64,000 bases of DNA from Candidatus Woesearchaeota archaeon (GCA_018303125.1 JAGVYS010000001.1:5886-69885); one strand, 5' to 3'. Shown: positions 16,934 to 41,152, numbered from the stretch's first letter. The notes: generated by a model from the letters alone, not told the origin. Made by a program: numbers and translations.

Positions 16934-18176
16934 TTTTTTTCATCTTTTCAACAAAGTAAGGGAATGTGACTGAAATGTGCTCTGCATCCTTTATTTCCGT
17001 AATGCCGCTTGCACACATGCCAGCACATGCAAGGGACATTATCACTCTATGGTCCTTGTATCCATCGACATTTGCGCCGTGAAGACTGCTGCGCTCTATT
17101 AATAGGCCATCTTCAAGTTCAGTTATTGACGCGCCCATCTTCTTCAACTCAGAGCACATCACAGCTATCCTGTCTGTTTCCTTTATCCTGGCCTGCGGAA
17201 CATTCTTAAGGACAGTTTTTCCTGATGCAAAGCATCCGACAATAGAGAGTATTGGCAAAAGGTCCGGAGTAGAATTAAGGTCTATCTCCCTGCCTTTTAG
17301 ATTTCCTGCTTTTATTGATACATCCATGCCTGAAATATTTATCTTGCATCCCATTTTCTTTAGTATTTCAATTATTTCCTTATCGCCTTGTGAATCATTT
17401 ATATCAACGCCGCTAACGGTTATTTCTGAGCCGGTTATAGCTGCTGCGCATAACGGGAATGCCGCCGAAGACCAATCCCCGGGAATCATTTTTGAAAATG
17501 ACTTATAACTTTGCTTTCCGTAAACTGTAAAATTTTTTATTCCTTCTCTCTTGTATCTTATCCCTTGTTCATCAAGCCACTCTAAAGTAACATCTACATA
17601 TGGCTGCTCATTTAACTGGTCATAGATTGTTATTTTAGTGTCCCCTTCAAGAAGAGGGCATGCCAGCAATAGGCTGCTTATGTACTGCGAGGTTTTGCCT
17701 GACACAGAAGTGCTTCCTGGAGTTATAGGTCCTTTTACTGATAAAGGTGCAAAACCATTCATGGATTTTGTTTTTGCACCTAGAATCTCCAGTGATTTAA
17801 GCAGAGGGCCCATCTGCCTTGTCCTCAGAGAGCCATCACCGTCAAAAGTGATCTCTTTTTCCTGAATGGCTGCCATGCTTGCCATAAACCTCAAAGTTGT
17901 GCCTGAATTCCCTACATCAATCTTGCTTGCCTTGAATTTTGGCTTGCCGCCAAGTCCGTGTACTTTCCACTCCGTGTCTTTTTCTTCCACTCTTGCGCCT
18001 GCTGCCTTTATTGCTGATAAAGCAGAAAGTCCATCCCCGGAATTAAGGGCATTTCGTATTGTGGAATCGCCATCTGCGAGCATAGCTATTACAGCAGCCC
18101 TTATTGTATGCGACTTTGAGCCAGGTACAATTATTGTCCCTTCAAGCTTCTTGGTAAACCCGCTTGCCAGCTTCAT
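16908..18176 (-). CDS. aroA: 3-phosphoshikimate 1-carboxyvinyltransferase (EPSP synthase)
   Basis: PGSKSHTIRA..., LGNSGTTLRF... signatures. Confidence 0.92.
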   Translation of the reverse strand: MKLASGFTKKLEGTIIVPGSKSHTIRAAVIAMLADGDSTIRNALNSGDGLSALSAIKAAGARVEEKDTEWKVHGLGGKPKFKASKIDVGNSGTTLRFMASMAAIQEKEITFDGDGSLRTRQMGPLLKSLEILGAKTKSMNGFAPLSVKGPITPGSTSVSGKTSQYISSLLLACPLLEGDTKITIYDQLNEQPYVDVTLEWLDEQGIRYKREGIKNFTVYGKQSYKSFSKMIPGDWSSAAFPLCAAAITGSEITVSGVDINDSQGDKEIIEILKKMGCKINISGMDVSIKAGNLKGREIDLNSTPDLLPILSIVGCFASGKTVLKNVPQARIKETDRIAVMCSELKKMGASITELEDGLLIERSSLHGANVDGYKDHRVIMSLACAGMCASGITEIKDAEHISVTFPYFVEKMKKIGANFNEN

Positions 18177-18180
18177 TATT

Positions 18181-19242
18181 CTAAGCTCTCACCAGTCTCT
18201 GCGCAAGAACAGCATCTGCAAGAACTATGTTGGTCATGTGTTCTATCACAGGAACTGCTCTTGGGCATAAGCAAGGGTCATGTCTCCCTTCCACGCTTAT
18301 CTTGGTAGCCTTGCCCTTATCATCAACTGTGCTCTGCTCCTTTGTTATTGAAGAAGGTGCTTTTATGACTGCCCTGAATATTATGTCCTGTCCTGTTGAT
18401 ATTCCCCCAGATATTCCTCCGGCATTGTTTGTGCGCGTGCTTATCTTCCCGGCCTTTGAATAAAAGGAATCGTTGTTCTCAGAACCTTTAAGGCCTGCTG
18501 CGCCAAATCCGGAGCCGAACTCTATGCCCTTTACTGCGCCTATGGAAAGTATGGCTTTTGCAATATCTGCATCAAGCTTGTCAAATACGGGGTCACCTAG
18601 CCCTTGGGGAGGATTCTTCACTACCACTTCAATTATCCCACCTATAGAATCACCTTCTTTCTTGACAGACTCAATCAGCTTCTCCATCTTCTTTGCAGCT
18701 GTCTTGTCAGGGCACCTTACGCTGTTCTTCTCTATTTCGCCATAATCAATTTTTTCTGCCCTTATGTTTCCTACCTGGAGCGTATACGCTATTACTTTTG
18801 TTCCTGTTATTATCTTCTTTGCCACTGCGCCTGCAGCCACCCTGCAAAGAGTCTCCCTTCCTGATGACCTTCCTCCGCCCCTATAATCCCTCATCCCATA
18901 CTTATTCAGGAATGCATAGTCTGCATGCCCTGGCCTGAAGAGGTGCTTTATTTGCTCATATTTGGAGGAATCAGCATCCTTGTTTCTAACAATAATGCAT
19001 ACTGGCGCTCCTGTTGTCTTTTCTTCGAATATCCCTGAAAGTATCTCTATCTCGTCTTTTTCAGTCCTTGGCGAAGTTACGTTGCTCTGTCCGGGCCTTC
19101 TCCTGTCCATCTCGGACTGAATGTCTTCCTTGGAGACTCTAAGCCCTGCTGGAACACCATCTATGACTGTCCCAAGCGCAACTCCATGCGATTCCCCGAA
19201 GGTTGTTACCCTAAAATGCCTTCCGAATGTGTTTCCCATCAT
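18181..19242 (-). CDS. aroC: Chorismate synthase
   Basis: FGESHG...GGRSSGRET signatures. Confidence 0.92.
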   Translation of the reverse strand: MMGNTFGRHFRVTTFGESHGVALGTVIDGVPAGLRVSKEDIQSEMDRRRPGQSNVTSPRTEKDEIEILSGIFEEKTTGAPVCIIVRNKDADSSKYEQIKHLFRPGHADYAFLNKYGMRDYRGGGRSSGRETLCRVAAGAVAKKIITGTKVIAYTLQVGNIRAEKIDYGEIEKNSVRCPDKTAAKKMEKLIESVKKEGDSIGGIIEVVVKNPPQGLGDPVFDKLDADIAKAILSIGAVKGIEFGSGFGAAGLKGSENNDSFYSKAGKISTRTNNAGGISGGISTGQDIIFRAVIKAPSSITKEQSTVDDKGKATKISVEGRHDPCLCPRAVPVIEHMTNIVLADAVLAQRLVRA

Positions 19243-19757
19243 TTCACCTTCGTGATTATCTCGTCTGCAATGACCTCAACTGAGCGCCCCTTTTGGTCTA
19301 TCTCAACATCGGCCGCATCAGAATAAATTCTGGACCTTTCCTTAAAAAGCTTTTCGAATGAGCCTCTCTTGTCTTTTCCAAAAAATGGTATGTCCTGCCA
19401 CTCAATCCTATTGTAAAGTATATCTGGATCTTCCTTTAGGTATACTATCTGGCCCATTAAGGCAATATTATCCCGATTTTCTGGGTCATCAAGCGCTCCT
19501 CCTCCAATGGAGATTATAGAATTTTTTGAATTCGTTATTTTGCCTATTGCCTCTTTCTCAATTTCCCTGAAATATTCCTTGCCTTGCCTCCTGTAAATCT
19601 CCCTGCAAGTTGCCTTCTCTCCATTTTTTCCTAGGTATATCTCCTCGATTATTGAATCTGTATCTATAAAGTATTTTGATAGCCTTTTTGCAAGAATCCT
19701 GCCCAAAGTTGTTTTTCCTGATGCTTTGAATCCTATCAGTATTATATTATTGCCCAT
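19239..19757 (-). CDS. aroK: Shikimate kinase, bacterial AroK/AroL P-loop type
   Basis: Walker A GFKASGKTT, DTD, ISIGGGA, VYL, and a C-terminus that aligns with E. coli AroK. Confidence 0.85.
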   Translation of the reverse strand: MGNNIILIGFKASGKTTLGRILAKRLSKYFIDTDSIIEEIYLGKNGEKATCREIYRRQGKEYFREIEKEAIGKITNSKNSIISIGGGALDDPENRDNIALMGQIVYLKEDPDILYNRIEWQDIPFFGKDKRGSFEKLFKERSRIYSDAADVEIDQKGRSVEVIADEIITKVK

Positions 19758-21207
19758 AAAGAACCTTCTCTATTACTCCCTCCTGATGCCTTATCCCTGT
19801 CCAAAGTTCAAACTGCATTGCTGCCTGGTAGGCAAACATCCTTGCTCCAGATATTGTAACACATCCATTTTGTTTTGCCATTTTTAGCAGCTTTGTTTCC
19901 ATCGGATTGTATATTGCATCGAATACCGTAATGCCTTTAAGGTGCTTTTTCTCTACTGGGGATTTATTTATGTTTGGATGCATTCCAACAGGTGTTGAAT
20001 TTATCAGTATCTCGACATCATCCCAATTTATCTTTGATAGTGACGTGAATTTGCAATTAAGTTTTTTTGCAAGCCTCCTCGCCTTTTCCTCTGTCCTGCT
20101 AGTTATAGTAATTTTCCCGCCTTTAAGTTTTATCCCGTATCCTATTGCCCTTGCTGCGCCACCTGCGCCAATCAATATTGTGCTCTTCCCCTTTATGCTT
20201 ATTTTATCTTCTATTGCACTAATTGCACCGTATGCATCTGTGTTATACCCTCTCATATTTTCTCCATCAACCAATACGGTATTTACTGCACCTATCTTCA
20301 TTGAATCTTCATGCGTGCTATCTAGATAACTCGTTATCTCTTCCTTATAAGGCATAGTTACACTGAATCCTGAGAGCATGCTCCTAAAACTCTTTACAAA
20401 CTCCCCCAGATTGTCTACATGAAAGTTAAGGTAGACTGCATTAAGATTGTGCTTCTTGAAAAGATAGTTATGCACTATGAATCCTTTGCTCTTTGAGACA
20501 GGATTGCCAACAAGGCCGTATATTTTCAGGTTTTTAATTTTAAGCTTGTCTGCCCTGTAGATTCTTTTAAGCTCCTCGCACGGTATCTGTCCGGGAGAGG
20601 TCTCCTTTCCTGTGGCTACTGAACCAAAAGTTAAGTATGCGCCATACGCAAGGTTCAGTATCCTCGATATCTCCCCCTTCTCTCCCATACACAATGCAAT
20701 TATCCTTACCCCTTCTTTTCTTGCCTTCTTTATTATGTCAAGCATGATAAGGTTGTCTGATATGCTTCTTGCCATACACGCTATCTTTATTATGTCCCCT
20801 CCCAAAGATTTCATTTCCTCATATATGGAATGGATATTTTTAGGCACCCCTGAAAAATTATGGTAGGAGATGATTATTTTTGTCCTTCCTTTTCCGCTCA
20901 GAATTCTGTCAATTGCTTTTTTTCCCGAACTCATCTCTATGTCAACATAATCCGCCCCACGAGCAATGCATTCTTGCAGCAATTCTATCCTATTCTTCTC
21001 CTTCCGGCTGAAAATCCCTCCATCTTTCTTTTTCCTACAGGTGAATATTATGGGCAATCTTTTCTTCGAAGATATCTTGCTTATGCCATTTTCTGGAATT
21101 TTCTTTATGCCGTCAAGCCTTATCTCGGCCAAATCAGCACAGTTTTCATTGGATAAAATCTTGATTATCTCATCTATAGAAGAAGCTACAACTGACCTGC
21201 ATATCAC
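19747..21207 (-). CDS. aroDE: Bifunctional 3-dehydroquinate dehydratase (type I) / shikimate dehydrogenase fusion
   Basis: N-terminal half is the type I DHQase TIM barrel; C-terminal half has SDH signatures (GAGGAARA Rossmann). Confidence 0.85.
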   Translation of the reverse strand: MICRSVVASSIDEIIKILSNENCADLAEIRLDGIKKIPENGISKISSKKRLPIIFTCRKKKDGGIFSRKEKNRIELLQECIARGADYVDIEMSSGKKAIDRILSGKGRTKIIISYHNFSGVPKNIHSIYEEMKSLGGDIIKIACMARSISDNLIMLDIIKKARKEGVRIIALCMGEKGEISRILNLAYGAYLTFGSVATGKETSPGQIPCEELKRIYRADKLKIKNLKIYGLVGNPVSKSKGFIVHNYLFKKHNLNAVYLNFHVDNLGEFVKSFRSMLSGFSVTMPYKEEITSYLDSTHEDSMKIGAVNTVLVDGENMRGYNTDAYGAISAIEDKISIKGKSTILIGAGGAARAIGYGIKLKGGKITITSRTEEKARRLAKKLNCKFTSLSKINWDDVEILINSTPVGMHPNINKSPVEKKHLKGITVFDAIYNPMETKLLKMAKQNGCVTISGARMFAYQAAMQFELWTGIRHQEGVIEKVLYGQ

Positions 21208-22283
21208 ATGAGTTCACCTATTGCTCTCTCGGCTATTTTCGAGCCGACCCTTACTCCAATTCTTGAGTTTCCTATCCCTACTGGAAGTACATATTTTACG
21301 CCATCTGAAGTATTCTTCTTGTCTGCTGATGTATTGAGCAATATCTTCTCTACAGGCTGCTTCTTGTAAGGAAGCAATAGCTTTCGTACTAATGAGGTTA
21401 TCCTAGAATAATCATTTTCTTGGACCATGCCAAGGTTTCTTGCCATCGCTGTCTCTGCCAGAATGCCAAGGGCAACAGCCTGCCCATGCTTGATTGAATA
21501 GCCGGAAGCTGATTCTATTGCATGCCCTATAGTATGCCCGAGATTTAGAACTTTCCTCAATGAAGATTCTTTCTCATCCTTCTCAACTATGCTTTTTTTT
21601 ATTGAGGTGCACCAGTAAACGGCTTTAATCAGCGTTTCTTTATCAAGGGAAATTATTTTTTCAACTGAATTTTCCATGAATATGAAGAATTTTTTGTCCA
21701 GGGCTATTGCATGCTTTACCATTTCAACTGTTCCATTTATCATCTCTTCCTTGGGAAGTGTCTTCAGCATATCCATGTCCATATATACTGCGGAAGGCTG
21801 GTAAAATGTCCCTATCATATTTTTCCCATATGGTATGTTTATCCCTGTCTTGCCGCCTATGCTGCTGTCCACCATTGCAAGAAGCGTTGTTGGGTACTGG
21901 ATGTAAGGGATACCCCTCATGTAAGTAGATGCAACATATCCTGTAATATCTCCTACAACCCCTCCTCCCAATGCTACGATAGCTGAATCCCTCCTGAATT
22001 CGAGCGAAAACAACTCATCCTCTATTGCCTCCTTCGTTTTCCTGTTCTTGCTCTTCTCTCCTGCTTCAAAGCTTATCAGTTCTGCCTTAATGCCTGAGCT
22101 GCGAAGCCTTTCCAGATGCGTGCTTCCATGAAATTTCTTTACTTCAGAATCTGTAATAATTGCAACCTTTGAGAATCCCCTGAGTTTTTCCGAAAGTTTA
22201 TGAATGAGCCCGGTGCCGAGCAGAATTGTATAGCTGTAATCTTTCTGCCTTATCCTTACCTTTAGCTCATTGTTGCGTGGCAT
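21204..22283 (-). CDS. aroB: 3-dehydroquinate synthase
   Basis: [14 protein letters not shown]...GGKTGIN..., HAIE... metal ligands. Confidence 0.9.
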
Positions 22284-22284
22284 A

Positions 22285-23295
22285 TCATAATGTCCTTCCT
22301 ATTGCCCTGGATAAGTCCTTCAACTCATGCATAAGCTTGCCGAAATCCTCTGTGCTTATTGTCTGGTCTGCATCAGAAACTGATTTTTCGGGGTGCGTAT
22401 GTACTTCCAGCAGCAGGCCATCTGCACCTGCGGCAACCGCTGCCTTGGCAATAGGATTCACAAGGCTCCTTCTTCCTGTGCCGTGGCTTGGGTCCGCTAT
22501 TACAGGAAGATGTGTAAGTTCCTTCAAAGCAGGAACAGCTGCTATGTCTATAGTGTTTCTTGTGTAATTCTCAAATGTTCTTATGCCTCTCTCGCAAAGT
22601 ATCACTTCCCTATTGCCGCTGGACATGATGTATTCTGCTGCAAGAAGCAATTCATTATAGGTTGCCCACATTCCTCTTTTTAGCAGCACAGGCTTCATTG
22701 TTTTGCCCACTTCCTTAAGAAGAGGGTAGTTCTGCATGTTTCTCGTGCCTATCTGCAGGATATCAGAATATTTTGAAACAATGCCGACGTACCTTGGGTC
22801 CATTACCTCTGTGACTATTGGCAAGCCGGTAGCTTTCCTTACTTTTGCAAGTATTTTCAGACCTTCTTCTCCAAGGCCCTGGAAGTCGTAAGGCCCTGTC
22901 CTTGGCTTGAATGCTCCTCCCCTTAATATCTTTGCTCCATATTTTTTTACCCTCATTCCTATCTCAAGCATCTGCTCTTCAGATTCCACAGAGCATGGCC
23001 CTGCTATAACGATTATTTCTTTCCCGCCAAATACAACATTGCCGACTCTTACTTTGCTTTGGCTCTTTCCCTCTTTGCTGGCAAGCTTGTAAGGCTTTAG
23101 AACCTCTATGACCTTCTCTACCCCGTCCATGGCTGACAGGGAATCCTTATGCAGAACCCTTTCATTCCCTACTATCGCAATTACAGTACGTTCAGTGCCT
23201 ACTATTGGCACAGGCTTAAGCTTCGATGCCTTGACAGCTTCGATTACTTTGTCAGCCTGTTTGGCTGTTGTGCCTTTCTTCATTATTATTATCAT
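22285..23295 (-). CDS. 3-deoxy-7-phosphoheptulonate (DAHP) synthase, class I-beta, with N-terminal ferredoxin-like regulatory domain
   Basis: Residues ~1-70 ([16 protein letters not shown]...[11 protein letters not shown]) align with the T. maritima DAHPS FL domain; the rest is a KDO8PS/DAHPS I-beta barrel (GPCSVES..., ADPSHG). Confidence 0.85.
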
Positions 23296-27426: not shown

Positions 27427-27493
27427 AATGGCACAAAACAGAAAATTTATATATAAAAATATTCATTTTTCAACTCTGGAGAGGTAAACGGCA

Positions 27494-28660
27494 ATGAGAA
27501 AGTCCCAATCGGCAATGAATGCGGCAGTGCTAATAACGATTGTTTCTGCCCTGATTATCCTCTATATAATACTGCTCCCTTCAGACAAAAGGCTGGAGCT
27601 TATAGGTGAAAACCGCTCATCATCCGAAACAGGCACAGAAGGGAAGATTCTTGTTGAGGACAAGGAAATAGTGATGGAGCACTTCAACGACGACAGCAAG
27701 GACTATGATAAAATTCCTTCTGTTAACCTCTACACAAAAAAAAGCTCTAAAGAGATATTCGAAGACAGCTCAGTTTATGTCAAAACATCTGTATTTGGAA
27801 AGGAAACAAAGGAGATTCCATTCAGTGTTGATGATGTGGATAATACAGATAATCTGCTTCTTTCATTTTTTGTAAAGAAGCATAGTGGCAGGCTCATGGT
27901 TTCTGTAAATGAGAGAGAAGTTTTCAATAATTATATAGAAAGCATAAACGTAGAGCCTATAAGCATACCTAATAGCATCCTGGCAAAGAGCAATATACTA
28001 AAACTTGAGGCTTCTGGGGTAGGCTTTGCATTCTGGGCAAAGAATGAGTATCTGCTTGAGGAGATTAAGATAACTGCCGACATAACAGATGTTTCTGCAA
28101 GGGGCTCAGAGGTTACTTTTAATGTTCCAAAATCAGAGATAAGCAACATTGACAAAGCAACACTTAGGTTTGTCCCTGAGTGCCAAGAGGGAAAGGTAGG
28201 CATACTTGAAGTTAGCATAAACGGAAAAGGAGTATTCTCTGGTGTGCCTGATTGTGGCATACCCAGGCCTTTGAGTTTTGCCCCTGAGCTTCTTGTTTCT
28301 GGGCCAAATAAGATATCCTTCCATAGCGATGAGGGTAGGTACCTTATAGACCAAATAAAGGTTACAACAGATTTTGACGAGCCGCCATCCTATACTTATT
28401 TCTTTGATGTTGACAATGCCTTGCTTAAGGATATAAACAGCAAAAAGAAAGTAGTCAATCTTACAATGTTCTTTGTGGATGATGAAGAAGACAAAGAAGC
28501 GGAGATTTTCATAAATGATAGAAAAACATTCATGAGAAGGCATAATGACTTCGAGTTCAGCAGAAACATAGGTGAATTCCTTGAAGTAGGGTCTAACTCC
28601 CTAAAAGTCGTGCCTGAGAGAAGGATGGAAGTCAGGAAGCTGGTTGTAAGGGCTGAATAG
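27494..28660 (+). CDS. Signal-anchored extracytoplasmic protein with three internal ~90-aa repeats (hypothetical)
   Basis: N-terminal hydrophobic anchor (AAVLITIVSALIILYIILL); repeat pattern L.F.V...V.N.R..F...G.N.LK recurs three times. Confidence 0.55.
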   Translation: MRKSQSAMNAAVLITIVSALIILYIILLPSDKRLELIGENRSSSETGTEGKILVEDKEIVMEHFNDDSKDYDKIPSVNLYTKKSSKEIFEDSSVYVKTSVFGKETKEIPFSVDDVDNTDNLLLSFFVKKHSGRLMVSVNEREVFNNYIESINVEPISIPNSILAKSNILKLEASGVGFAFWAKNEYLLEEIKITADITDVSARGSEVTFNVPKSEISNIDKATLRFVPECQEGKVGILEVSINGKGVFSGVPDCGIPRPLSFAPELLVSGPNKISFHSDEGRYLIDQIKVTTDFDEPPSYTYFFDVDNALLKDINSKKKVVNLTMFFVDDEEDKEAEIFINDRKTFMRRHNDFEFSRNIGEFLEVGSNSLKVVPERRMEVRKLVVRAE

Positions 28661-28766: not shown

Positions 28767-31400
28767 ATGGTTTTCAAATGGATTAATAACAAACTGGGTG
28801 CTGGTAAAGCTAGGTTTGATAGTTCTGCGCCGGTGGTATGGACAAAGGACAAAGTAGATAGGACAAGGTCTACGATAGGCTCAGAGAGTGCCGAGGCAGA
28901 CAAGTTCAGGTCAAAAGGTGCCTTAACAACTATGCTAATTTTGGCCCTTTTAATAAATTATATTCTGGAAGGGTTCATTCCTGCATTCAGGTTTTCTGGC
29001 TTCGAGTTAAGTTTTTTCATCGGGACAATAGTCTACGGCGATTGGGTCGGAATATACAACCTTTTCCATTTCAACATTTTCTTCCTTCTTGTTGCATTTG
29101 CGGTATTCAATCTGAGAAACGGGAAGCCCCATATTCTCAGAGTATGGCTCGGTCTAATACTTATTGCTTACTTGCTTAGCTCAATACCCATACTCAACAC
29201 CTATATGGGCATAAGGAATTTTATTGAATTAATCATGCTGATAATTTCTGCCATTTACCTTTCCTTCAGTGAGACAACAAAAGAGGATTTCATATCTACT
29301 ATTGTTGTTATGTGGGCTTTCTACAACATTTTCTTCTTCGGCATTACTAGCACTATAGGAGGCCTGACTCATTTCATATTCATCATCCTTTTCTTCATAA
29401 TTTTCTGCATGGGAAACCACTTTGCAGAAGATAGGACTCAGATAAAATGGTGGCTCATAATACTAATCCTGTTTGATTTTTTCCTTCCGCAAATTCTTAA
29501 GGCGGCTTATCCTACTATACCTGTTGACTCCCTGCCATGGCTTACTTTCGGAATGGTAATATTTGGTAATGTCTACAAGCCGTATTGGTTCCCGAGATTT
29601 TTGCTTATAGCGCTGGTTGCATTCTATTTCCTGCAATATGCTTTCGCAGGCAATGATACATTTGCCCAGATAATTGGCCAGAGGGGTGCAGACCAGGAAA
29701 ACATAGCTGAGAGAATGAAGTTCCTAAACCCGAAAGAATGGTTAAACAGGATAACTCAGTGGACAAATCAATCTGTATATTATGCCTCAGGTCAAAACTA
29801 TTATGCGGGAAGGGTGGATGAGAACGCGAAGAAAGACCTTGGAGTGTTTATAGAGGGGATGGACCGTAACGATAAGATATTTTACGACAATGAAAGGATA
29901 ATAATCGATGCAAACCTAAAGGCCCAGAACTTCGTATCTGAAGAGGACGTTGGCTTTGAATCTCTCACCATACAGCTGGATTGCTGGGCGCAACAAAATG
30001 GGAAAAATTTCGCCCATGGAAAGATTTATCCGAAAAACAAGTATGAGATTGACGCATTTGATACTGAGAGCATACAGTGCATATTCGATCCATGGCAGCT
30101 CCAGCTTGGCTCATATGATATAATTATAGAGGCAACATTTAACTTCCAGACTCAGACATACCTCAAAAGATATTTTGTAAATACCCTGCTTTTAGACTCC
30201 CTCAAAAGTAAAAAAGTAATTGAAAAAGACTCAGACATATTGAAACTGAACAAGATAAGTGATACTATGCCTTCTGCAAAGAACAGCGCAGGTCCAGTGG
30301 AAATACGCGTGTCTGATCAGGTTCCAAGCATAATAGAGCTTAGCAATGAGATTGACACAAAGCAGATATTTGGCGTGCAGATTGCCAACAGATGGAGAGG
30401 CGAAATAAAGAGGATAAAGGGATTTGAGTTTTACCTACCGGACGGCATATATCTTGATGAAGGATACTGCACATTTGCTATGGGTATCGATGCTATAAGC
30501 GACAGCAGGTTTGAGGGCTACATCAAATACTCGCTCCAGGAAAAGAACAACATCAGGCTGAGAAACATAAAGAAGGAAATTGTACAGAGATGCTCGCTTG
30601 CCATGAAAAAAGGAGACATTGAAAAAGTCCTTGGGCCTGAGGATGTTACCACAAGGTATATACAATTGAAGACTGATTATGACTACCTTATGAAGGAAAG
30701 CGTAGGAATAACAGTTGCAGAGCCTCCTGGCGTAAACATGAAGATTTTCTCGCCTGACAGGGGCGCTATAGATTCAGGCAGCATGCCACTATGCAAGATA
30801 ACCTATGACAAAAAGGAGTCATTTATCCTATGGCTCCTTGGCGCAGCAGGAGTTGGCCTTAAGAACACTGTTGTTTTCGAGCTTTATGCTGGTGACAGTC
30901 TTGTAGAGCCTATGGTGCAGGAGCAATGTACCGAGGCAAGGTGCGAGCACTTTTACGAAAAAACGTTCCCTAAAGGCACAAAATTGAGATGCAAGGCAAC
31001 AGTGGATACTTCCAGATTTGATGAGCCTGCAGAGTGGCAGGAGCCAGAGGCTTACGTCATTGTGAAAAACAGCGCCCCAGTTGTTAAAAGCGTAGACTAT
31101 CTGAGGGATGCAAATTATGGTCTTACAACGAGAGAGTATGTCAAAGGTGACATTGCCATCTGTTCTGCAAGCGTTGAGGACAGAGATAATGATGAAATAA
31201 TTGCAGAGTTCAGCTTCGAGGGCTTTGATGTTGCCCCGACGACAAAGGAGTGCAGGGGCAACTGCTTCGTTGAAATCCCCACAGGAAGTGCACAAAAGGC
31301 AACAGCTATGACCTGCAAAGTAAGGGTTTTCGACGGAGAGGATTATAGCAAAGAAGTATCAACCAATGCGAATCTGGTTATGTTAGGTGCATCACCTTGA
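28767..31400 (+). CDS. Large polytopic membrane protein (about 8-9 TM in residues ~50-330) with a ~550-aa Cys-rich C-terminal ectodomain (hypothetical)
   Basis: Hydrophobic-helix pattern in the N-terminal third; many Cys in the C-terminal domain; no family recognised. Confidence 0.55.
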   Translation: MVFKWINNKLGAGKARFDSSAPVVWTKDKVDRTRSTIGSESAEADKFRSKGALTTMLILALLINYILEGFIPAFRFSGFELSFFIGTIVYGDWVGIYNLFHFNIFFLLVAFAVFNLRNGKPHILRVWLGLILIAYLLSSIPILNTYMGIRNFIELIMLIISAIYLSFSETTKEDFISTIVVMWAFYNIFFFGITSTIGGLTHFIFIILFFIIFCMGNHFAEDRTQIKWWLIILILFDFFLPQILKAAYPTIPVDSLPWLTFGMVIFGNVYKPYWFPRFLLIALVAFYFLQYAFAGNDTFAQIIGQRGADQENIAERMKFLNPKEWLNRITQWTNQSVYYASGQNYYAGRVDENAKKDLGVFIEGMDRNDKIFYDNERIIIDANLKAQNFVSEEDVGFESLTIQLDCWAQQNGKNFAHGKIYPKNKYEIDAFDTESIQCIFDPWQLQLGSYDIIIEATFNFQTQTYLKRYFVNTLLLDSLKSKKVIEKDSDILKLNKISDTMPSAKNSAGPVEIRVSDQVPSIIELSNEIDTKQIFGVQIANRWRGEIKRIKGFEFYLPDGIYLDEGYCTFAMGIDAISDSRFEGYIKYSLQEKNNIRLRNIKKEIVQRCSLAMKKGDIEKVLGPEDVTTRYIQLKTDYDYLMKESVGITVAEPPGVNMKIFSPDRGAIDSGSMPLCKITYDKKESFILWLLGAAGVGLKNTVVFELYAGDSLVEPMVQEQCTEARCEHFYEKTFPKGTKLRCKATVDTSRFDEPAEWQEPEAYVIVKNSAPVVKSVDYLRDANYGLTTREYVKGDIAICSASVEDRDNDEIIAEFSFEGFDVAPTTKECRGNCFVEIPTGSAQKATAMTCKVRVFDGEDYSKEVSTNANLVMLGASP

Positions 31401-32365
31401 AAAAGTTCTATTTGCTAATAATTGCAGTCATGCTAGTTTCAGCATGCCGGGGCTCAGGAGAGGGTTCTTTGGATGATAAGCTTCAGACAGGGATAGATGG
31501 GCTTACATTGAAATTCCTAAAAAATGGCGTTCCTGAGGTTATAGAAGGAAACAGGCTAAGCATGGCTCTTGAGATAAGGAACGAGGGTTTCAGCTACATT
31601 GAGGATTCCCTTCTTGTCCTATATACAGAGAAGGATGTCCTTAAACTAGAGAAATGGGATTTGCCTGGAAGGCTAAGGGTAAACAGCGACAACAGCCTTT
31701 CGTTTAACTTAAGGGGAAAGACTCTTGCCAATAGAAAGGGAGAGTTCGAGTTGCCAAGCTTCACTGTCAAGGCTGAAAAGATTGATGAATCAAGGAATAA
31801 GATTGAATCAATGGTGGGAATAAACGCCTGCTACAGGTATTATACTATATTCTCTGAGAGCCTCTGCATAGATACAGACCCATTTGGCAGGAAAATTGCA
31901 AGCAAGAGCTGCAAAGCAAAGGACATAAGCTCCTCAAGCCAAGGCGCTCCTGTAGCTATAACTAAAGTGGAGCAGAGCATATTCCCTGCTGAAACTCCAG
32001 ACTCCGCAATAATAGAATTGAATATATATATAGAGAATAAGGGCAAAGGCATTTTGATTGACCCTGAAAAGTATAAGGATGCCTGCCTCGGAAAAGGCCA
32101 AGGATTTAATTCTATATTGCTTACCAAGTTGAAGTTTTCATGGTATGAATACAATTATGAGGGCTTGTCTGATTTTGAATGCTCTCCCAACCCAATTGAG
32201 CAGAGAAAAAAGGAGTACGTTGTAAGGTGCAGGCTGAAGGAAGAAAGTGCAATCCCCTCTGAAACACTGACATTTGAAACTCCTCTCCTTATTGAGCTTT
32301 ATTATGGATATAAGATATCTGATTCCATAAGAATTGATGTGCTTAATGATGAAAGAAGCAACTAA
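31397..32365 (+). CDS. Putative lipoprotein, paralog A of a three-member family
   Basis: Signal peptide plus lipobox-like VSAC; motifs CYRYYT...LCID and SQGAPVAITKVE shared with the next two genes; TTG start overlaps the stop of the upstream gene. Confidence 0.55.
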   Translation: MKKFYLLIIAVMLVSACRGSGEGSLDDKLQTGIDGLTLKFLKNGVPEVIEGNRLSMALEIRNEGFSYIEDSLLVLYTEKDVLKLEKWDLPGRLRVNSDNSLSFNLRGKTLANRKGEFELPSFTVKAEKIDESRNKIESMVGINACYRYYTIFSESLCIDTDPFGRKIASKSCKAKDISSSSQGAPVAITKVEQSIFPAETPDSAIIELNIYIENKGKGILIDPEKYKDACLGKGQGFNSILLTKLKFSWYEYNYEGLSDFECSPNPIEQRKKEYVVRCRLKEESAIPSETLTFETPLLIELYYGYKISDSIRIDVLNDERSN

Positions 32366-32409
32366 GCGTAGAAAATTTTAAATAGGATGTTTCAGGGTAT
32401 TATGCTAAT

Positions 32410-33360
32410 ATGAGATTCCGCGTCATTTTGGCTATCCTTCTTATATCGCTTACCGTAATATCGTGCAGTCCTAACAGGAACAGAGAGGGGGAAAGGATAT
32501 CTGATAGAGATTATAGGCAAGGCACCAAGGGGCTTGAGCTGGAGTTTATGAGGAATGCTCCGCCGGATAGGGTATACTCTGGAGATGACATGAACTTAAT
32601 TGTTGAGATAAGAAACCTAGGTGCATACCCGACAACAGATTCATTCGATGGAAGATTAGAGGTTTATGGCTATGATGAAAAAGTCTTCCAAGGTGAAAGA
32701 TGGAATGGCGGCCCATTTATCTCGCCTACCTTGCAGGGAAGAAGCCAGTTTTCACCAGAAGGTGGTAGGGAAAACAAGGAGTTCCATGTTGATAAGGTAA
32801 CTACTCCCTTTGGTTCAGAAGCTTTCAAGCAAAGGATAATAGTTGCAGCATGCTACAAGTACAAGACAATAGCACAGCCGTTGGTGTGTATAGACCCTGA
32901 ACCACAGTCTGTTTTTGATGAAAGCAAGGTATGCACAGTAGACAGGAATGGAAAGACTTATGCCCTTGGAAGCCAAGGTGCGCCTGTGGCAGTTACAAGG
33001 GTAGAGGAAGAGATAAGTAGCAGCAACATCCATTTCAGCATAGAAATAAAGAATGTTGGAAGAGGCAAGGTTGTTGATGAGAACGTTAGGAAAGAATGCC
33101 CGCTTGGCCTTGATTTTAATGACGTTGACAGGGTTATGGCCTCAGTTAAGCTTCCCTATGATTCTTCTCCAAAATGCCAGCCAAAGGGGGATTATACTGA
33201 CCCTATAAGGCTGGATGAAAGCGGAAGAGGAACTATATTTTGTACATTCAAGAAGCCGCCATCCAAATCAGCCTTTGAGACGGTTCTGCAGATAACGCTT
33301 GATTATAGGTATGTTGACGAAGTATATAAGGACATTGAAGTCATAAACATTGATAGGTAG
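32410..33360 (+). CDS. Putative lipoprotein, paralog B
   Basis: Signal peptide plus VISC; CYKYKT...VCID, SQGAPVAVTRVE. Confidence 0.55.
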   Translation: MRFRVILAILLISLTVISCSPNRNREGERISDRDYRQGTKGLELEFMRNAPPDRVYSGDDMNLIVEIRNLGAYPTTDSFDGRLEVYGYDEKVFQGERWNGGPFISPTLQGRSQFSPEGGRENKEFHVDKVTTPFGSEAFKQRIIVAACYKYKTIAQPLVCIDPEPQSVFDESKVCTVDRNGKTYALGSQGAPVAVTRVEEEISSSNIHFSIEIKNVGRGKVVDENVRKECPLGLDFNDVDRVMASVKLPYDSSPKCQPKGDYTDPIRLDESGRGTIFCTFKKPPSKSAFETVLQITLDYRYVDEVYKDIEVINIDR

Positions 33361-33443
33361 GACCCTTTAAGCAAGATTATTCTGGTTAAATTATCATGGG
33401 ATAGAAGTAAGGTTTATATATTAAGAGATTATAAAGTAGCAAA

Positions 33444-34388
33444 ATGAGAAAAATCCTGATAGTGCTTCTTTTTGTATCGCTTGTCATGACTGCCTGTGAT
33501 GGAAAAGGGCCTAAGGGAAGCATAGAAAATCCTTGGATAGGCGGAACAAAAGGAGTCATTGTTTCTTTTGAGGAGAATGCTCCACAAGCAGAGGTTTTTG
33601 ATGGTGGTAATTACCCGTTTGGTGTTGTAACCAAGCTAAAGAACGAAGGAGAGTATGAGGTTCAAAAAGAGGACGTAAAAGTCACAATATCGGGAATACT
33701 CGCGCAGGAATTCGGAAGGGTTGAAAGCGACCTTGTAAAAGGTCCTGATGATTTACTGCCTGCAAAAAGGAAGGATTCTGAAGGACGGGCAGAGGACTCT
33801 GACCCCGTATTCGTGGATTTTGGTGATTTTACATTTGAGTCAAGCATTGTGGCACAGAATACTTACACTTTAAGGGCAGATGTATGCTATAAGTACCAGA
33901 CAACAGCAAACTCGCTCATATGCGTCCTAAAAGATAACTTAAAGGACAATGATGCAGTCTGTGCAGTAAATGAGCCAAAGGCTGTCTTCAATTCTGGTGC
34001 TCCAGTACAAATTTCTGATTTCAGAGAGTCTGCAAGAGGCAAAAACAAGATTGCGTTCACATTTATAGTCTCACACAAGGGAGCGGGCAAGATATTCAAG
34101 ATGGATTCAGGTTGCAACGTCACATCAAGAGACTTTGAGGACAGAGTTTTTGTGGACGTTTCAACAGGAATAGAAGGCAAGCTTGAGTGCACAGGACTCA
34201 AGGAAAGCACGATGACCAATGGTTCTGTCTCGGGTTTCCTCACATTGTTCTCGAGCCAGAAGGCAGTAAGCTGTTCGCAGGAAGTCTCTACCAATTCTGA
34301 TTACCAAAAGCCTGCAACAATAAAGGCAACATATGATTATTCTGATAATATAGTAACAGAAGTATTGGTAAAACACCAGCTTAATTAG
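33444..34388 (+). CDS. Putative lipoprotein, paralog C
   Basis: Signal peptide plus MTAC; CYKYQT...ICV, SGAPVQISDF. Confidence 0.55.
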   Translation: MRKILIVLLFVSLVMTACDGKGPKGSIENPWIGGTKGVIVSFEENAPQAEVFDGGNYPFGVVTKLKNEGEYEVQKEDVKVTISGILAQEFGRVESDLVKGPDDLLPAKRKDSEGRAEDSDPVFVDFGDFTFESSIVAQNTYTLRADVCYKYQTTANSLICVLKDNLKDNDAVCAVNEPKAVFNSGAPVQISDFRESARGKNKIAFTFIVSHKGAGKIFKMDSGCNVTSRDFEDRVFVDVSTGIEGKLECTGLKESTMTNGSVSGFLTLFSSQKAVSCSQEVSTNSDYQKPATIKATYDYSDNIVTEVLVKHQLN

Positions 34389-38319: not shown

Positions 38320-39390
38320 ATGAACATAGCCATGCTTAAGGGATTTCTAATTCGAAAAAAAATAGAGGCTGCGTTATTTTGTTGCCTTGATTCAGAAATT
38401 GAGAGTAAGAGCATGTCATATTTTTCAGGTTATAATGGGATTGGGTGCCTCATAGTTCCGCGAAGTAATGAGCCTTTCCTTGTAGTGCCTAAAATGGAAT
38501 TTGAAAAGGCAAAGAAATCTGGAAAAGCTTATCTCTGGAAAAAAGGAGAGGGGCTATTTGAAACTGCTGTCAGGATAATGAAGGTGAAAAAGGCACCTAT
38601 GGGGGTTCTTGGACTGGAATGTAGAAATCTCAGCTTTTCTGCTTACAAATTAATTAAAAAATATGTCAAGTGCAGAATAAAGGATATAAGCCAAGATTGC
38701 CTTGCTATAAGGTCAATAAAAAAAGAAGATGAAATAGCCAAGATAAGGATTGCATGCAAAATAGCAGATAAGATATTAATGAGATGCGTAAACTCATTCC
38801 GCTCATTTGGCACAGAAGCAGATGTAGAAAAATTCCTTCATCTGGAAACAGTAAAGAGGGGTTGCAAGCTAGCTTTCAGGCCTATAGTTGCATCTGGAAA
38901 GAACTCTAGCATGCCACACTATGAACCTGCAAACACAAAAATATCTAAGGGTTTCTGTGTAATTGATTTTGGTGTTGAATACGAGGGGTATAATTCAGAC
39001 ATAACTAGGACAATATACTTGGGCAACCCTTCAAGTAAGGAGCAAGAAATCTATAATGCGGTTCTACGTGCAGAGGAAGAGGCAATTAAATCAATAAAAG
39101 TAGGTAACAAATGTTGTCATGCTAATGAAATCGCCTGCAGTGAGCTGGGGAAGCATGCAAAAAGGTTTATCCATGGCCTTGGGCACGGTATAGGATTAAA
39201 CGTTCACGAGCTGCCTAGCATCTCATCAAAATCTGCAGACATATTTGAAGACAGTATAGTATTCACAATAGAACCAGGAGTTTATTTTCCTGGTAAATTT
39301 GGAATTAGGATTGAAGACGATATACTACTTAGAAATGGAAAAGTTGAAATACTGACTAATTCGCCAAGAAACCTAATTGCAAAAGGGTAA
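38320..39390 (+). CDS. M24-family Xaa-Pro peptidase
   Basis: HGLGHGIGLNVHE and IEPGVY pita-bread fold motifs. Confidence 0.8.
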   Translation: MNIAMLKGFLIRKKIEAALFCCLDSEIESKSMSYFSGYNGIGCLIVPRSNEPFLVVPKMEFEKAKKSGKAYLWKKGEGLFETAVRIMKVKKAPMGVLGLECRNLSFSAYKLIKKYVKCRIKDISQDCLAIRSIKKEDEIAKIRIACKIADKILMRCVNSFRSFGTEADVEKFLHLETVKRGCKLAFRPIVASGKNSSMPHYEPANTKISKGFCVIDFGVEYEGYNSDITRTIYLGNPSSKEQEIYNAVLRAEEEAIKSIKVGNKCCHANEIACSELGKHAKRFIHGLGHGIGLNVHELPSISSKSADIFEDSIVFTIEPGVYFPGKFGIRIEDDILLRNGKVEILTNSPRNLIAKG

Positions 39391-39391
39391 A

Positions 39392-41152
39392 ATGGAAAAA
39401 TATAACCTTAAAAGATTCTCAAAAAGCGTCAGCAGATACAAGAGGATACTTGGAGATATAAGGGGAAAGAGCATTTTAGTGGTTCTTGATGTATCCCAAA
39501 AGGAAGCTTTCTACTCTGTTGCGCCACTATCAAGGGCAGTGCATGAAAAGGGAGCCGATATGCACGTGTATGTCATAGGAAGCTCATCTTCCAGTTTGGA
39601 CGTTCTCAAGAGTGTTTGGACAACATACAGCGAGATGAAATCCGGACTTAAGAGCAAAAAGGGATCTGCATTGAGAGATTTCATTAGCAAGGCAGACAAA
39701 AAATGCAATGGTGCCATAGAAGGTATTTTCAGACACCCTGAAAAGTTCGTAAAAGCAAGGGGAAAAGGGTTCGAAGGTTCTTTTAGTCTTCCATATGACA
39801 TCTCCTGGATGAAAGAATATAAGAAAAAGGAACTGCTTAAAACATGCAAAATAATCTGGAAACAAGTCTATAACTTGCAGAATAATGAAAAAGTGGGCAT
39901 AAACTTTGAGCTTGTAGGTTCTGTCTTAGGTTTGCCTATAGAAGACTATCTTGATTCTTTCCAGATAAGCTACAATATGATGCTTTCTGTTAAGTCACAA
40001 GTCACAGGGATGAGCAGCTCCACGCCTCGCAAATCGCAGCTTGATGCTCCTGAGAGGATTTCAGAGCTTAAGGCAACTTTGCTTGGGTGCGAACTTTCAA
40101 AGGGTTCAAAAGAGCCAATCTTTGCCAGTTTCAAAAAGCTTTCTAGTCTGCTAAGCATAAGCAAGATGACAATCTCAAGTGCTGTATTCGGGATACACGG
40201 TAAGGGTTATCCTGGAAAGCATTATTTCGGGGAATGTGTTGGCTACCCATCTCCAAATGGAAAGACAAGGTGGGAAACACCTGGCCAGATGGTATACAAG
40301 CTTGATTTTTATCCGCAAACTGCCCTTGACCCTAGGAAGCCCAGAGCTAGGATAGCATTCACGGAAACAGTCCCTATAGACATTTTCATAAAAACATGCA
40401 AAATAGACTGGCTTAAAATGAAAGAAAGAGATGACAGCATAATCAGGCTGGCTGATAAGTGCCAGTACATCATTGTCGAAGGCAAGAAGTTTGGAAAATA
40501 CAGGACAAGTCTCAAAGTATGGCTGGAAGACAAGGGAAAAAGGTACAGGTTCAGGGGTTCTGATGTTGAGACTAGGAACCTGATAAGCCCGCACTATCCT
40601 AATAAAAAAATAGTTGCAGGCACAATGGCCAATATACCTGGAGGAGAGGCTTTTACCACTCCAAAATATGTCAAGGGACAGTTTATAGGGGATGTTGTGA
40701 TAAGCCTTGACCAGAGTTATAAGCTCAATGCTAAAGATCCTTTTGTCATAAACTGCTATGGTAACCGCTATAAGGTAATAAGGGAACCTAAAATCATTGG
40801 GATGAAATTCAAGGAAAAGAAAAAGCAGGCATGGAAAAGGATATTGAACCAGGAAAAAAACAAGGCAGTGCCAATGAGCATTGTTAATCTTCAGAAAGAA
40901 AACTTTAATAACATAGGCGAATTCGCGATAAATACGAATCCAAAAGCAGAACTATGCAATTACCTCATTGTTAACGAGAAGATAGCAAACATGATTCATA
41001 TTGCGCTTGGTTCTGGTTTTGAAGCTGAACGCTCAACAACATACCATACTGATATTGTCATAGATGCGCCACGTCAGCAGTTGGACATATACGGTGTAGA
41101 TAATAATGGGAAAAAGTACTGGATACACAAGAAAGGCAAGTTTGTTATTTAA
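39392..41152 (+). CDS. M29-like aminopeptidase paralog with a long N-terminal extension
   Basis: C-terminal half shares NIPGGEAFTTP / IHIALGSGF / YHTDIVID with the downstream M29-like gene; ATG at 39392 follows the stop of the M24 gene. Confidence 0.45.
   Translation: MEKYNLKRFSKSVSRYKRILGDIRGKSILVVLDVSQKEAFYSVAPLSRAVHEKGADMHVYVIGSSSSSLDVLKSVWTTYSEMKSGLKSKKGSALRDFISKADKKCNGAIEGIFRHPEKFVKARGKGFEGSFSLPYDISWMKEYKKKELLKTCKIIWKQVYNLQNNEKVGINFELVGSVLGLPIEDYLDSFQISYNMMLSVKSQVTGMSSSTPRKSQLDAPERISELKATLLGCELSKGSKEPIFASFKKLSSLLSISKMTISSAVFGIHGKGYPGKHYFGECVGYPSPNGKTRWETPGQMVYKLDFYPQTALDPRKPRARIAFTETVPIDIFIKTCKIDWLKMKERDDSIIRLADKCQYIIVEGKKFGKYRTSLKVWLEDKGKRYRFRGSDVETRNLISPHYPNKKIVAGTMANIPGGEAFTTPKYVKGQFIGDVVISLDQSYKLNAKDPFVINCYGNRYKVIREPKIIGMKFKEKKKQAWKRILNQEKNKAVPMSIVNLQKENFNNIGEFAINTNPKAELCNYLIVNEKIANMIHIALGSGFEAERSTTYHTDIVIDAPRQQLDIYGVDNNGKKYWIHKKGKFVI

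What the first reader, a model, noticed from the sequence alone, without database searches (positions are those of the whole stretch)
31397..34388. Three tandem paralogous ~315-aa lipoproteins sharing CY[RK]Y.T...[LI]C[IV] and QGAPV[A/Q][IV][TS] motifs
The three adjacent genes share a signal peptide with a Cys lipobox (VSAC, VISC, MTAC), an N-terminal G..G[LV].[LV].F..N.P block, a CY(R/K)Y(Y/K/Q)T...C(I/V) block that is a likely disulfide, an (S)QGAPV motif and a C-terminal L.Y.Y motif. The paralogs have diverged to roughly 25-35% identity, which points to an old local triplication.
Basis: seen in the sequence. Interest (0 to 1): 0.55.

Follow-up and report, generated by a model that had tools for sequence, protein, structure and literature searches.

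The report
Conserved Woesearchaeota five-gene surface-protein operon
The three neighbouring lipoprotein genes are real, anciently triplicated paralogs with no known family. They are the last three genes of a five-gene cell-surface operon kept in the same order in the Woesearchaeota/Nanoarchaeota-labelled genomes examined, and in many relatives one partner protein carries bacterial-cell-wall-cutting enzyme domains.

Summary
ORFs 31397-32365 (A), 32410-33360 (B) and 33444-34388 (C) are full-length homologs: BLASTP 9e-26, 1e-14 and 2e-5; profile-profile 1e-39 to 3e-73. All the listed motifs align in register, and the lipobox Cys is kept in 98-100% of orthologs.

An AlphaFold2 model of B (pLDDT 90) shows two beta-sandwich domains. 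It has only generic Ig/CARDB-like structural neighbours and no Pfam, NCBIfam, PHROG or PDB sequence match.

The unit is larger than reported. In about 80 related genomes the order is Pelota | g1-g2-A-B-C | RFC.
- g1 (27494-28660) has a prepilin-like N-terminus and three carbohydrate-binding-like jelly rolls.
- g2 (28767-31400) has a multi-helix membrane anchor, then probably a fourth, divergent copy of the A/B/C module, then a variable C-terminal end.
- In at least 18 relatives that end is a lytic transglycosylase (SLT) or an M23 peptidase; two more carry a glucosaminidase domain (position not mapped). The window's own end has no identifiable domain.

Each paralog has its own orthologs (216 of 219 best hits), so the triplication predates the sampled radiation.

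My best reading is inferred, not shown: A, B and C are lipid-anchored subunits of one extracellular complex with g1 and g2. That complex would display a variable, often murein-lytic head.

Covariation pairs that first Cys with a domain-2 Cys instead.

The parts
27447..27459 (+). AT-rich TATA-box-like element (TTTATATATAAAA) about 40 nt upstream of g1, followed by a GGAGAGGT Shine-Dalgarno-like site; candidate operon promoter
   Evidence: Read directly from the sequence. Not tested: the promoter tool covers only bacterial sigma-70 sites.
27494..28660 (+). g1: 388-aa protein. The N-terminus MRK-S|QSAMNAAVLITIVSALIILYIILLPS resembles a class III (prepilin-like) signal or membrane anchor. After a short disordered linker come three tandem jelly-roll (galactose-binding / CBM-like) domains.
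28767..31400 (+). g2: 877-aa polytopic membrane protein, 100% identical over 97% of its length to NCBI J4401_00240, a hypothetical protein of a Candidatus Woesearchaeota archaeon
   Evidence: No Pfam, NCBIfam or PDB sequence hit for the window copy.
28911..29654 (+). g2 membrane anchor: about 8 hydrophobic segments (aa 49-296). Poorly conserved in sequence and variable in number among orthologs (0-9, median 5).
   Evidence: Hydropathy scans. Alignment A5 has almost no conserved columns here.
29685..30812 (+). g2 conserved core (aa 307-682): probably a divergent fourth copy of the A/B/C two-domain module. Matching blocks: EATFNFQTQTYLKRYF ~ AACYKYKTIAQPLVCI; NSAGPVEIRV ~ SQGAPVAVTRV; FGVQIANRWRGEIK ~ FSIEIKNVGRGKVV; DYDY ~ DYRY.
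   Evidence: hhalign in global mode against the combined A/B/C profile: E 5.2e-5, probability 39%, 281 columns, all motif blocks collinear. Local hhalign against C: E 4.8e-4. This is the best-conserved part of g2.
30813..31397 (+). g2 variable C-terminal end (aa 683-877). Here it is Cys-rich and Ig-like by eye, with no identifiable domain. In orthologs this position holds 0-492 aa and often a peptidoglycan hydrolase.
   Evidence: Pfam on 41 orthologs: SLT in 10, Peptidase_M23 in 2, Glucosaminidase in 2. Iterated local HMMs: SLT in 15 and M23 in 3 ORFs at the g2 position, always C-terminal to the core wherever the core is on the same ORF. The E-S and GLMQ catalytic motifs are kept.
31397..32365 (+). 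Paralog A: 322-aa lipobox protein (V-S-A-C17; Cys codon 31445-31447). Its TTG start overlaps the g2 stop by 4 nt.
   Evidence: The 4-nt g2-A overlap is the median arrangement in 52 genomes. Lipobox Cys is kept in 98% of orthologs.
32410..33360 (+). Paralog B: 316-aa lipobox protein (V-I-S-C19; Cys codon 32464-32466). It has two beta-sandwich domains (about aa 40-165 and 180-312).
33444..34388 (+). Paralog C: 314-aa lipobox protein (M-T-A-C18; Cys codon 33495-33497). Its 3' end overlaps the convergent RFC small-subunit gene by 8 nt.
   Evidence: Lipobox Cys is kept in 99% of orthologs.

Best explanation
A, B and C are Sec-exported, lipobox (probably lipid-anchored) extracellular proteins. Each is built of two CARDB-like beta-sandwich domains stabilised by three disulfides.

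They are non-redundant subunits of one membrane-anchored extracellular complex, encoded by the conserved operon g1-g2-A-B-C of Woesearchaeota-type (class Nanoarchaeia) DPANN archaea.
- g2 supplies a multi-helix membrane anchor, probably a fourth copy of the same module, and a lineage-variable distal end.
- g1 supplies three carbohydrate-binding-like jelly rolls on a prepilin-like N-terminal helix.

The most likely role is a cell-surface scaffold that positions g2's variable head and g1's glycan-binding domains at the cell surface. In many lineages that head is a murein hydrolase (SLT lytic transglycosylase, M23 endopeptidase or glucosaminidase). The scaffold would then serve to bind and locally open the cell wall of a bacterial partner.

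Shown: homology, fold, conserved anchoring signals, operon conservation, and the hydrolase domains in orthologs.
Inferred: lipidation, physical assembly, glycan binding and the host-wall role.
For: - Full-length paralogy.
- The lipobox Cys is conserved in 98-100% of about 200 orthologs, and there are six further conserved Cys.
- The two beta-sandwich model is confident.
- The order Pelota | g1 g2 A B C | RFC recurs in nearly every one of 85 loci that has enough flank.
- 270 GTDB species genomes encode a relative. The family comprises 3349 clusters at 50% identity.
- Each paralog has its own orthologs: A 70/73, B 73/73, C 73/73. All three have therefore been retained since before the sampled radiation, as expected for distinct subunits.
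- The 4-nt g2/A overlap is conserved, which suggests coupled translation.
- The g2 core aligns collinearly with the A/B/C module.
- g2 orthologs carry SLT, M23 or glucosaminidase domains; SLT and M23 lie distal to the core, and the SLT catalytic motifs are intact.
- g1 is made of three jelly rolls that resemble sugar-binding domains, including BcsB and GH2 domains and CBMs.
- Lipobox proteins and the candidate lipidation enzyme AliA are reported as prevalent in DPANN (PMC12462473).
- Large murein-transglycosylase proteins of Woesearchaeota and Pacearchaeota have been proposed to attach to bacterial walls (PMC8204110).
Against: - No direct evidence of physical interaction. No multimer prediction or coevolution analysis could be run.
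- The window's own g2 has no recognisable hydrolase domain.
- About a third of g2 orthologs have no C-terminal extension at all. The conserved core function therefore cannot be murein hydrolysis itself.
- The g2-core to A/B/C homology rests on a weak score (probability 39%).
- Jelly-roll and Ig-like folds are generic, so fold similarity alone does not establish glycan binding or adhesion.
- Conserved synteny in a reduced genome could persist without functional coupling.
- Lipidation and prepilin-type processing are untested.
Confidence: 0.5

Rival explanations
1. A, B and C are independent surface-coat or adhesin proteins (S-layer-like or pseudo-periplasmic structural lipoproteins). They are syntenic with g1 and g2 only through genome stasis, and each acts alone.
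Against: Strict retention of all three paralogs with position-specific orthology. Conserved start/stop overlap with g2. A homologous module inside g2. Mean pairwise identity among orthologs is 33-37% across the sampled genomes, about the same as g1 and higher than g2; to my knowledge this is high for a coat protein.
Confidence: 0.25
2. The cluster is a machine that remodels the cell's own envelope. The SLT and M23 heads would act as autolysins on a murein-like wall made by the archaeon itself, with A, B and C as scaffold or regulators, in the way FtsX-EnvC or NlpD control hydrolases in bacteria.
For: Peptidoglycan hydrolase domains on a polytopic membrane protein, next to lipoproteins. The locus is core-chromosomal and universal in the genomes examined.
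Against: No murein synthesis genes were seen in the window. The DPANN genome paper I read treats murein as a bacterial wall component and murein transglycosylases as normally absent from Archaea. Hydrolase heads are present in only about a third of lineages. No ATPase partner is present.
Confidence: 0.1
3. The cluster encodes a type IV pilus-like or pseudopilus structure. g1 would be a large pilin-like subunit, and A, B and C would be accessory or assembly proteins.
For: The g1 N-terminus matches the archaeal class III signal pattern ([KR][GAS] then Q or A, then about 20 hydrophobic residues) across orthologs, and it is modelled as a long helix.
Against: No assembly ATPase, PilC/ArlJ-like platform or prepilin peptidase was found in or next to the cluster, either among the ORFs scanned in the window or in the annotated related loci. 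A, B and C have lipoboxes, not class III signals. g2 has no T2SSF hit.
Confidence: 0.05
4. The similarity is chance, or the ORFs are not genes.
For: None beyond the low pairwise identity (22-34%).
Against: E-values down to 1e-73, thousands of homologs, confident models and conserved synteny.
Confidence: 0.01

Closest known systems
CARDB domain (Pfam PF07705) and other Ig-like beta-sandwich surface domains (alpha-2-macroglobulin MG domains, integrin leg domains)
   Different: All Pfam scores are below threshold: the best of 43 members has E 0.0094, and A has E 0.17 against a 22.7-bit cut-off. No solved structure matches both domains together (at most 128 of 316 residues aligned; TM-score at most 0.21). 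The family has its own conserved inter-domain GAPV segment and three-disulfide pattern.
Archaeal lipobox lipoproteins (AliA/AliB pathway; PMC12462473)
   Same: Positively charged N-terminus, hydrophobic core and a [LVI][ASTVI][GAS]C lipobox. The paper predicts such proteins to be prevalent in DPANN.
   Different: Lipidation has been shown only in Haloferax. Here it is inferred from sequence. Paralog C has Met at position -3.
Large extracellular murein lytic-transglycosylase proteins of Woesearchaeota and Pacearchaeota (fam00969 in Castelle et al. 2021, PMC8204110)
   Same: g2 orthologs carry SLT domains on large membrane-anchored extracellular proteins in the same lineages.
   Different: I could not verify that g2 is fam00969, because the supplementary table is not held. 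The paper describes single proteins of up to 3000 aa. It describes no operon, lipoprotein paralogs or pilin-like partner. The window's g2 has no SLT domain.
Virion-associated or secretion-machine-associated peptidoglycan hydrolases (phage tail lysins with SLT, M23 or glucosaminidase heads; VirB1, FlgJ)
   Same: A structural scaffold that carries interchangeable SLT, M23 or glucosaminidase heads to breach a wall locally. This comparison rests on my own knowledge of those systems and is an analogy only.
   Different: No sequence or fold relationship of A, B, C or g1 to phage or secretion-system proteins. There is no match in 50,697 phage records or in PHROGs. The locus is chromosomal and housekeeping-flanked.
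BcsB (cellulose synthase periplasmic subunit) and CBM / GH2 sugar-binding jelly rolls, compared with g1
   Different: Pfam BcsB is hit weakly by only 2 of 43 orthologs (E 0.037). There are no flavodoxin-like domains and no synthase partner, and the anchor is N-terminal rather than C-terminal.

Membership tests
Lipobox lipoproteins (bacterial-type signal, archaeal AliA/AliB pathway) | N-terminal basic region, hydrophobic core, then [LVI][ASTVI][GAS]-C | tested here: met
   A has V-S-A-C17 and B has V-I-S-C19. C has M-T-A-C18, with a non-canonical -3 residue. The Cys is conserved in 98-100% of 62-70 orthologs per paralog.
Lipobox lipoproteins (bacterial-type signal, archaeal AliA/AliB pathway) | Covalent lipid on the Cys, with the lipidation enzymes present in the genome | not testable with these tools
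   Only a 64-kb window is available. AliA is reported in DPANN generally (PMC12462473).
CARDB (PF07705) | Pfam score above the gathering threshold (22.7 bits) | tested here: not met
   A scores 12.5 bits (E 0.17). B has no hit, and C has no CARDB hit. Only 5 of 43 family members reach E 0.5 or better; the best is 0.0094.
CARDB (PF07705) | CARDB-type beta-sandwich fold | tested here: inconclusive
Archaeal type IV pilin-like proteins (class III signal), for g1 | [KR][GAS] cleavage motif followed by a hydrophobic helix of about 20 residues | tested here: met
   The window has MRK-S|QSAMNAAVLITIVSALIILYI. Most orthologs, read by eye, show [KR][GAS]Q. A helix at residues 6-27 is modelled.
Archaeal type IV pilin-like proteins (class III signal), for g1 | Associated assembly ATPase, platform protein or prepilin peptidase; processing by PibD or EppA | tested here: not met
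   None is present in or beside the cluster in five annotated loci or among the window ORFs scanned. Processing itself is not testable here.
SLT lytic transglycosylase (PF01464), for g2 | SLT domain with the catalytic E-S and GLMQ motifs | tested here: not met
   The window's g2 has no hit. The feature is met in 10 of 41 orthologs by Pfam and in 15 ORFs at the g2 position by an iterated HMM, with the motifs intact.
S-layer proteins | Forms a 2-D lattice and is an abundant outermost protein | not testable with these tools
A/B/C family itself (unnamed; no Pfam or NCBIfam model) | About 310 aa; lipobox; G..GL.L.F..N.PP; CYKY.T...C.DP.P; (S)QGAPV; I.N.G.G; Y.Y at the C-terminus; six non-lipobox Cys | tested here: met
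   All three window proteins carry every block. The invariant columns come from a 43-sequence alignment. hmmsearch finds exactly these three ORFs in the window.

The most novel reading that the evidence does not exclude
The five-gene cluster encodes a lineage-defining host-contact organelle of Woesearchaeota-type DPANN archaea. A, B, C and the g2 core would form a pseudo-symmetric four-module stalk anchored by lipids and by g2's helices. The three jelly rolls of g1 would bind the partner's wall glycan. g2's interchangeable distal head (SLT, M23, glucosaminidase, or Ig-like as in this window) would locally breach bacterial peptidoglycan. This would be a cellular analogue of phage tail lysins, enabling archaeon-on-bacterium episymbiosis, with the head type tracking host range.
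Probability: 0.2. Interest if true: 0.8.

Novelty: new variant of a known kind. Interest (0 to 1): 0.55.

Why it matters
Woesearchaeota-type DPANN archaea are abundant, and to my knowledge they are uncultivated and thought to live attached to other cells. How they attach is not known, and their hosts are unidentified.

This analysis turns three anonymous hypothetical proteins into part of a defined, near-universal five-gene surface module with three useful properties:
- it has no Pfam, NCBIfam or PDB counterpart, yet it spans thousands of sequence clusters;
- it links the murein-hydrolase proteins already noted in these lineages to a fixed set of partner proteins;
- it gives a concrete target for multimer modelling, metaproteomics, cryo-tomography and heterologous expression.

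If the head type on g2 tracks the host, the locus could also serve as a genomic marker of whether a given lineage lives on bacteria or on archaea.

Tried and rejected
- Pfam, NCBIfam and PHROGs gave no significant hit for A, B, C, g1 or g2. A profile search of PDB sequences with the A/B/C family gave only a signal-peptide artefact. A single-sequence PDB search with g2 gave nothing.
- The afdb50 fold library was unavailable, so relatives among predicted structures could not be surveyed.
- A phage origin was rejected: there is no tblastn match in 50,697 phage records and the context is a housekeeping chromosome.
- A substrate-binding-protein or transporter role was rejected: the fold is not SBP-like and there are no ABC genes nearby.
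- The first search for related loci attempt, with the wide alignment, failed for lack of a conserved stretch. It was repeated with closer sequences.
- Rosetta-stone fusions in the ten longest family members gave only an Fn3 domain.
- Homology between domain 1 and domain 2 of the module is only a weak hairpin match (probability 11%) and I make no claim from it.
- The sigma-70 promoter and terminator scan is not applicable to archaea.
- The supplementary table of PMC8204110 that lists module-98 families is not held, so I could not check whether these families were already catalogued.
- Model coordinates are not exposed to scripts, so disulfide geometry could not be measured. Cys covariation was used instead.


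Full report

Yes. The window carries three consecutive + strand ORFs at exactly the reported coordinates:
- A, 31397-32365, 322 aa, TTG start;
- B, 32410-33360, 316 aa;
- C, 33444-34388, 314 aa.

Pairwise BLASTP gives A-B 9e-26 (28% identity), B-C 1e-14 (25%) and A-C 2e-5 (23%). I built family profiles from about 60-70 orthologs each. With those profiles the three align over their full length with probability 100%, at E 2.7e-73, 7.8e-46 and 1.4e-39.

A 43-sequence alignment of the wider family keeps them as invariant or near-invariant positions. These are the lipobox Cys, G38/G41/F46, N69-x-G71, Y149/Y151/T153, C160-x-D-P-x-P, Q189-G-A-P192, I211/N215/G217/G219 and Y299/Y301.

An hmmsearch with the family profile finds these three ORFs and no others in the 64-kb window. 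The two antisense ORFs inside the region (31840-32154 and 33887-34294) are shadow ORFs with no support.

**2. What the proteins are**

No Pfam, NCBIfam or PHROG model matches significantly. No PDB sequence matches either.

AlphaFold2 on B, with the 43-sequence alignment, gives a confident model (pLDDT 89.8, pTM 0.82). It has an N-terminal helix (the signal peptide), a disordered linker, and two beta-sandwich domains at about residues 40-165 and 180-312.

Seven Cys are conserved in each paralog, the lipobox Cys plus six others.
- C148 and C230 (B numbering) occur together in 155 orthologs and are absent together in 44. They are never found singly.
- C160, C175, C256 and C278 are essentially invariant.

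The likely disulfides are therefore 148-230 (inter-domain), 160-175 and 256-278.

The signal peptides end in V-S-A-C, V-I-S-C and M-T-A-C. The Cys is retained in 98-100% of orthologs. Lipobox proteins and the candidate lipidation enzyme AliA are reported as prevalent in DPANN archaea (PMC12462473). Lipidation here is inferred, not shown.

**3. The organism and the real unit**

The window is a core chromosomal segment of a Woesearchaeota-type DPANN archaeon. g2 is 100% identical over 97% of its length to NCBI J4401_00240 of a Candidatus Woesearchaeota archaeon.

The neighbours are housekeeping genes. They include a SecY gene, PheRS, a shikimate pathway operon, TrmB, acetyl-CoA synthetase, Pelota, RFC small subunit, TyrRS, an intein-containing MCM and PolD.

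Homologs of B are all unnamed hypothetical proteins. Those that carry an organism name are from Woesearchaeota or Nanoarchaeota. 270 GTDB species-representative genomes encode a relative. An exhaustive profile search finds 3349 clusters at 50% identity, of which 2619 have E of 1e-10 or better.

In five annotated contigs, and in my ORF/BLAST survey of 85 loci, the arrangement is almost invariably Pelota(-) | g1 g2 A B C (+) | RFC(-).

For each paralog I took the best hit in another genome. It falls in the same position in 70/73 cases for A, 73/73 for B and 73/73 for C. Within-genome identities are only 20-38%. The triplication therefore predates the divergence of all sampled genomes, and each copy has been kept. 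This argues for non-redundant roles.

The g2 stop and the A start overlap by 4 nt in the window, and -4 nt is also the median gap over 52 genomes. This suggests translational coupling.

**4. The partners**

*g1 (27494-28660).* It begins MRK-S-QSAMNAAVLITIVSALIILYIILLPS. Most orthologs, read by eye, show [KR][GAS]-Q followed by a hydrophobic stretch and a conserved LY.LFLPPEER motif (alignments A4 and A6). This matches the archaeal class III (prepilin-like) signal pattern. No pilus ATPase, platform protein or prepilin peptidase lies nearby.

*g2 (28767-31400).* It has three parts.
- The N-terminus has about eight hydrophobic segments. This region is barely conserved and varies from 0 to 9 segments in orthologs, so it behaves as an anchor rather than an enzyme.
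- The best-conserved part is an ectodomain core at aa 307-682. It aligns collinearly with the A/B/C module: global hhalign E 5.2e-5, probability 39%, 281 columns, with all five motif blocks in register. The local match to C has E 4.8e-4. I read this as a divergent fourth copy and flag the weak score.
- Distal to the core, orthologs carry 0-492 further residues.

Pfam finds SLT in 10 of 41 orthologs (best E 1e-11), Peptidase_M23 in 2 (4.8e-27) and Glucosaminidase in 2. Iterated local HMMs find SLT in 15 and M23 in 3 ORFs at the g2 position, always C-terminal to the core wherever the core is on the same ORF. The catalytic E-S and GLMQ motifs are present.

The window's own C-terminal end (aa 683-877) is Cys-rich and has no identifiable domain.

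Castelle et al. 2021 (PMC8204110) had noted large murein-transglycosylase proteins in Woesearchaeota and Pacearchaeota and proposed attachment to bacterial walls. They also described a module of 51 mostly unknown families specific to those lineages. They did not describe this operon or the lipoprotein paralogs. I could not check whether their family numbers correspond to these proteins.

**5. Mechanism**

My best-supported reading, at confidence about 0.5, is this. A, B and C are lipid-anchored subunits that assemble with the homologous g2 core and with g1 into one extracellular complex on the cytoplasmic membrane. The complex is a scaffold. It presents g2's variable head, which is a murein hydrolase in roughly a third of sampled lineages, together with g1's glycan-binding-like domains.

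Shown:
- homology among A, B and C, and their fold;
- conserved anchoring signals;
- operon conservation and gene overlap;
- position-specific orthology;
- hydrolase domains in g2 orthologs.

Inferred:
- physical assembly;
- lipidation and prepilin-type processing;
- carbohydrate binding;
- action on a bacterial partner's wall.

Because many g2 orthologs lack any head, the conserved function must lie in the scaffold itself. The murein-lytic role is an add-on in some lineages.

Rivals:
- independent coat or adhesin lipoproteins (0.25);
- a machine that remodels the cell's own wall (0.1);
- a pilus-related structure (0.05);
- chance (about 0).

**6. Comparison with known systems and novelty**

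The domains resemble CARDB and Ig-like surface domains but fail the Pfam threshold. The signals fit the lipobox definition. g1 fits the class III signal motif but lacks the associated machinery. The g2 orthologs, though not the window's copy, are SLT or M23 proteins.

The nearest functional analogy is a structural scaffold that carries interchangeable peptidoglycan-hydrolase heads, as in phage tail lysins or VirB1/FlgJ. This analogy rests on my own knowledge. There is no homology to phage proteins.

I rate this a new variant of a known kind: surface lipoproteins built from Ig-like domains, organised here in an undescribed, lineage-wide five-gene module. Interest is 0.55. On its own it is an ordinary paralog family. 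The conserved operon and its link to murein hydrolases give a testable candidate for the DPANN host-contact apparatus.

Noticed in passing
window 53784-57197 (+): The MCM helicase gene is interrupted by an intein with a LAGLIDADG homing-endonuclease domain (Intein_splicing at aa 337-793; LAGLIDADG_3 at 572-657).
   Followed up: no
window 15279-23295 (-): There is a contiguous aromatic amino-acid operon: DAHP synthase, DHQ synthase, fused DHQase/shikimate dehydrogenase, chorismate synthase, EPSP synthase, prephenate dehydrogenase and prephenate dehydratase. It sits next to PheRS alpha and beta. This is notable biosynthetic capacity for a DPANN genome. No shikimate kinase was among the ORFs scanned.
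   Followed up: no
window 39377-41152 (+): A 591-aa ORF with no Pfam hit is conserved in the same position (between the M24 and M29 peptidase genes) in related Woesearchaeota contigs L001 and L002. It is another lineage-conserved unknown.
   Followed up: no
window 27494-28660 (g1): g1 is itself an internal triplication of a jelly-roll domain (d1-d2 E 1.8e-9, d2-d3 E 7e-5). Three repeats in g1 parallel the three lipoprotein paralogs. Whether each repeat docks one paralog is unknown.
   Followed up: partly
window 33414-33423 (B-C intergenic) and 34381-34388: A second TATA-like element (TTTATATATT) lies about 20 nt upstream of the C start, so C may have its own promoter. The C stop region overlaps the convergent RFC small-subunit gene by 8 nt.
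   Followed up: no
L058 (JAFCCF010000001.1); L012, L015, L022 and many other CAY*/CAZ* records: Contigs that carry this archaeal cluster with its DPANN-type flanking genes (RFC; Pelota where the flank reaches it) are titled 'Candidatus Aminicenantes bacterium' or 'uncultured Methanosarcinales archaeon'. These are probably mis-binned or placeholder taxonomy labels.
   Followed up: no
L005, L062, L069 (A and B positions): In one sub-lineage A and B are about 100 aa longer (405-438 aa) and g1 is about 560-700 aa. The same genomes carry the longest SLT-bearing g2 proteins (about 990-1110 aa). The whole module seems to have expanded together.
   Followed up: no
window 10368-11144 (+): An EMC3/TMCO1/YidC-like membrane insertase gene lies directly downstream of SecY.
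   Followed up: no
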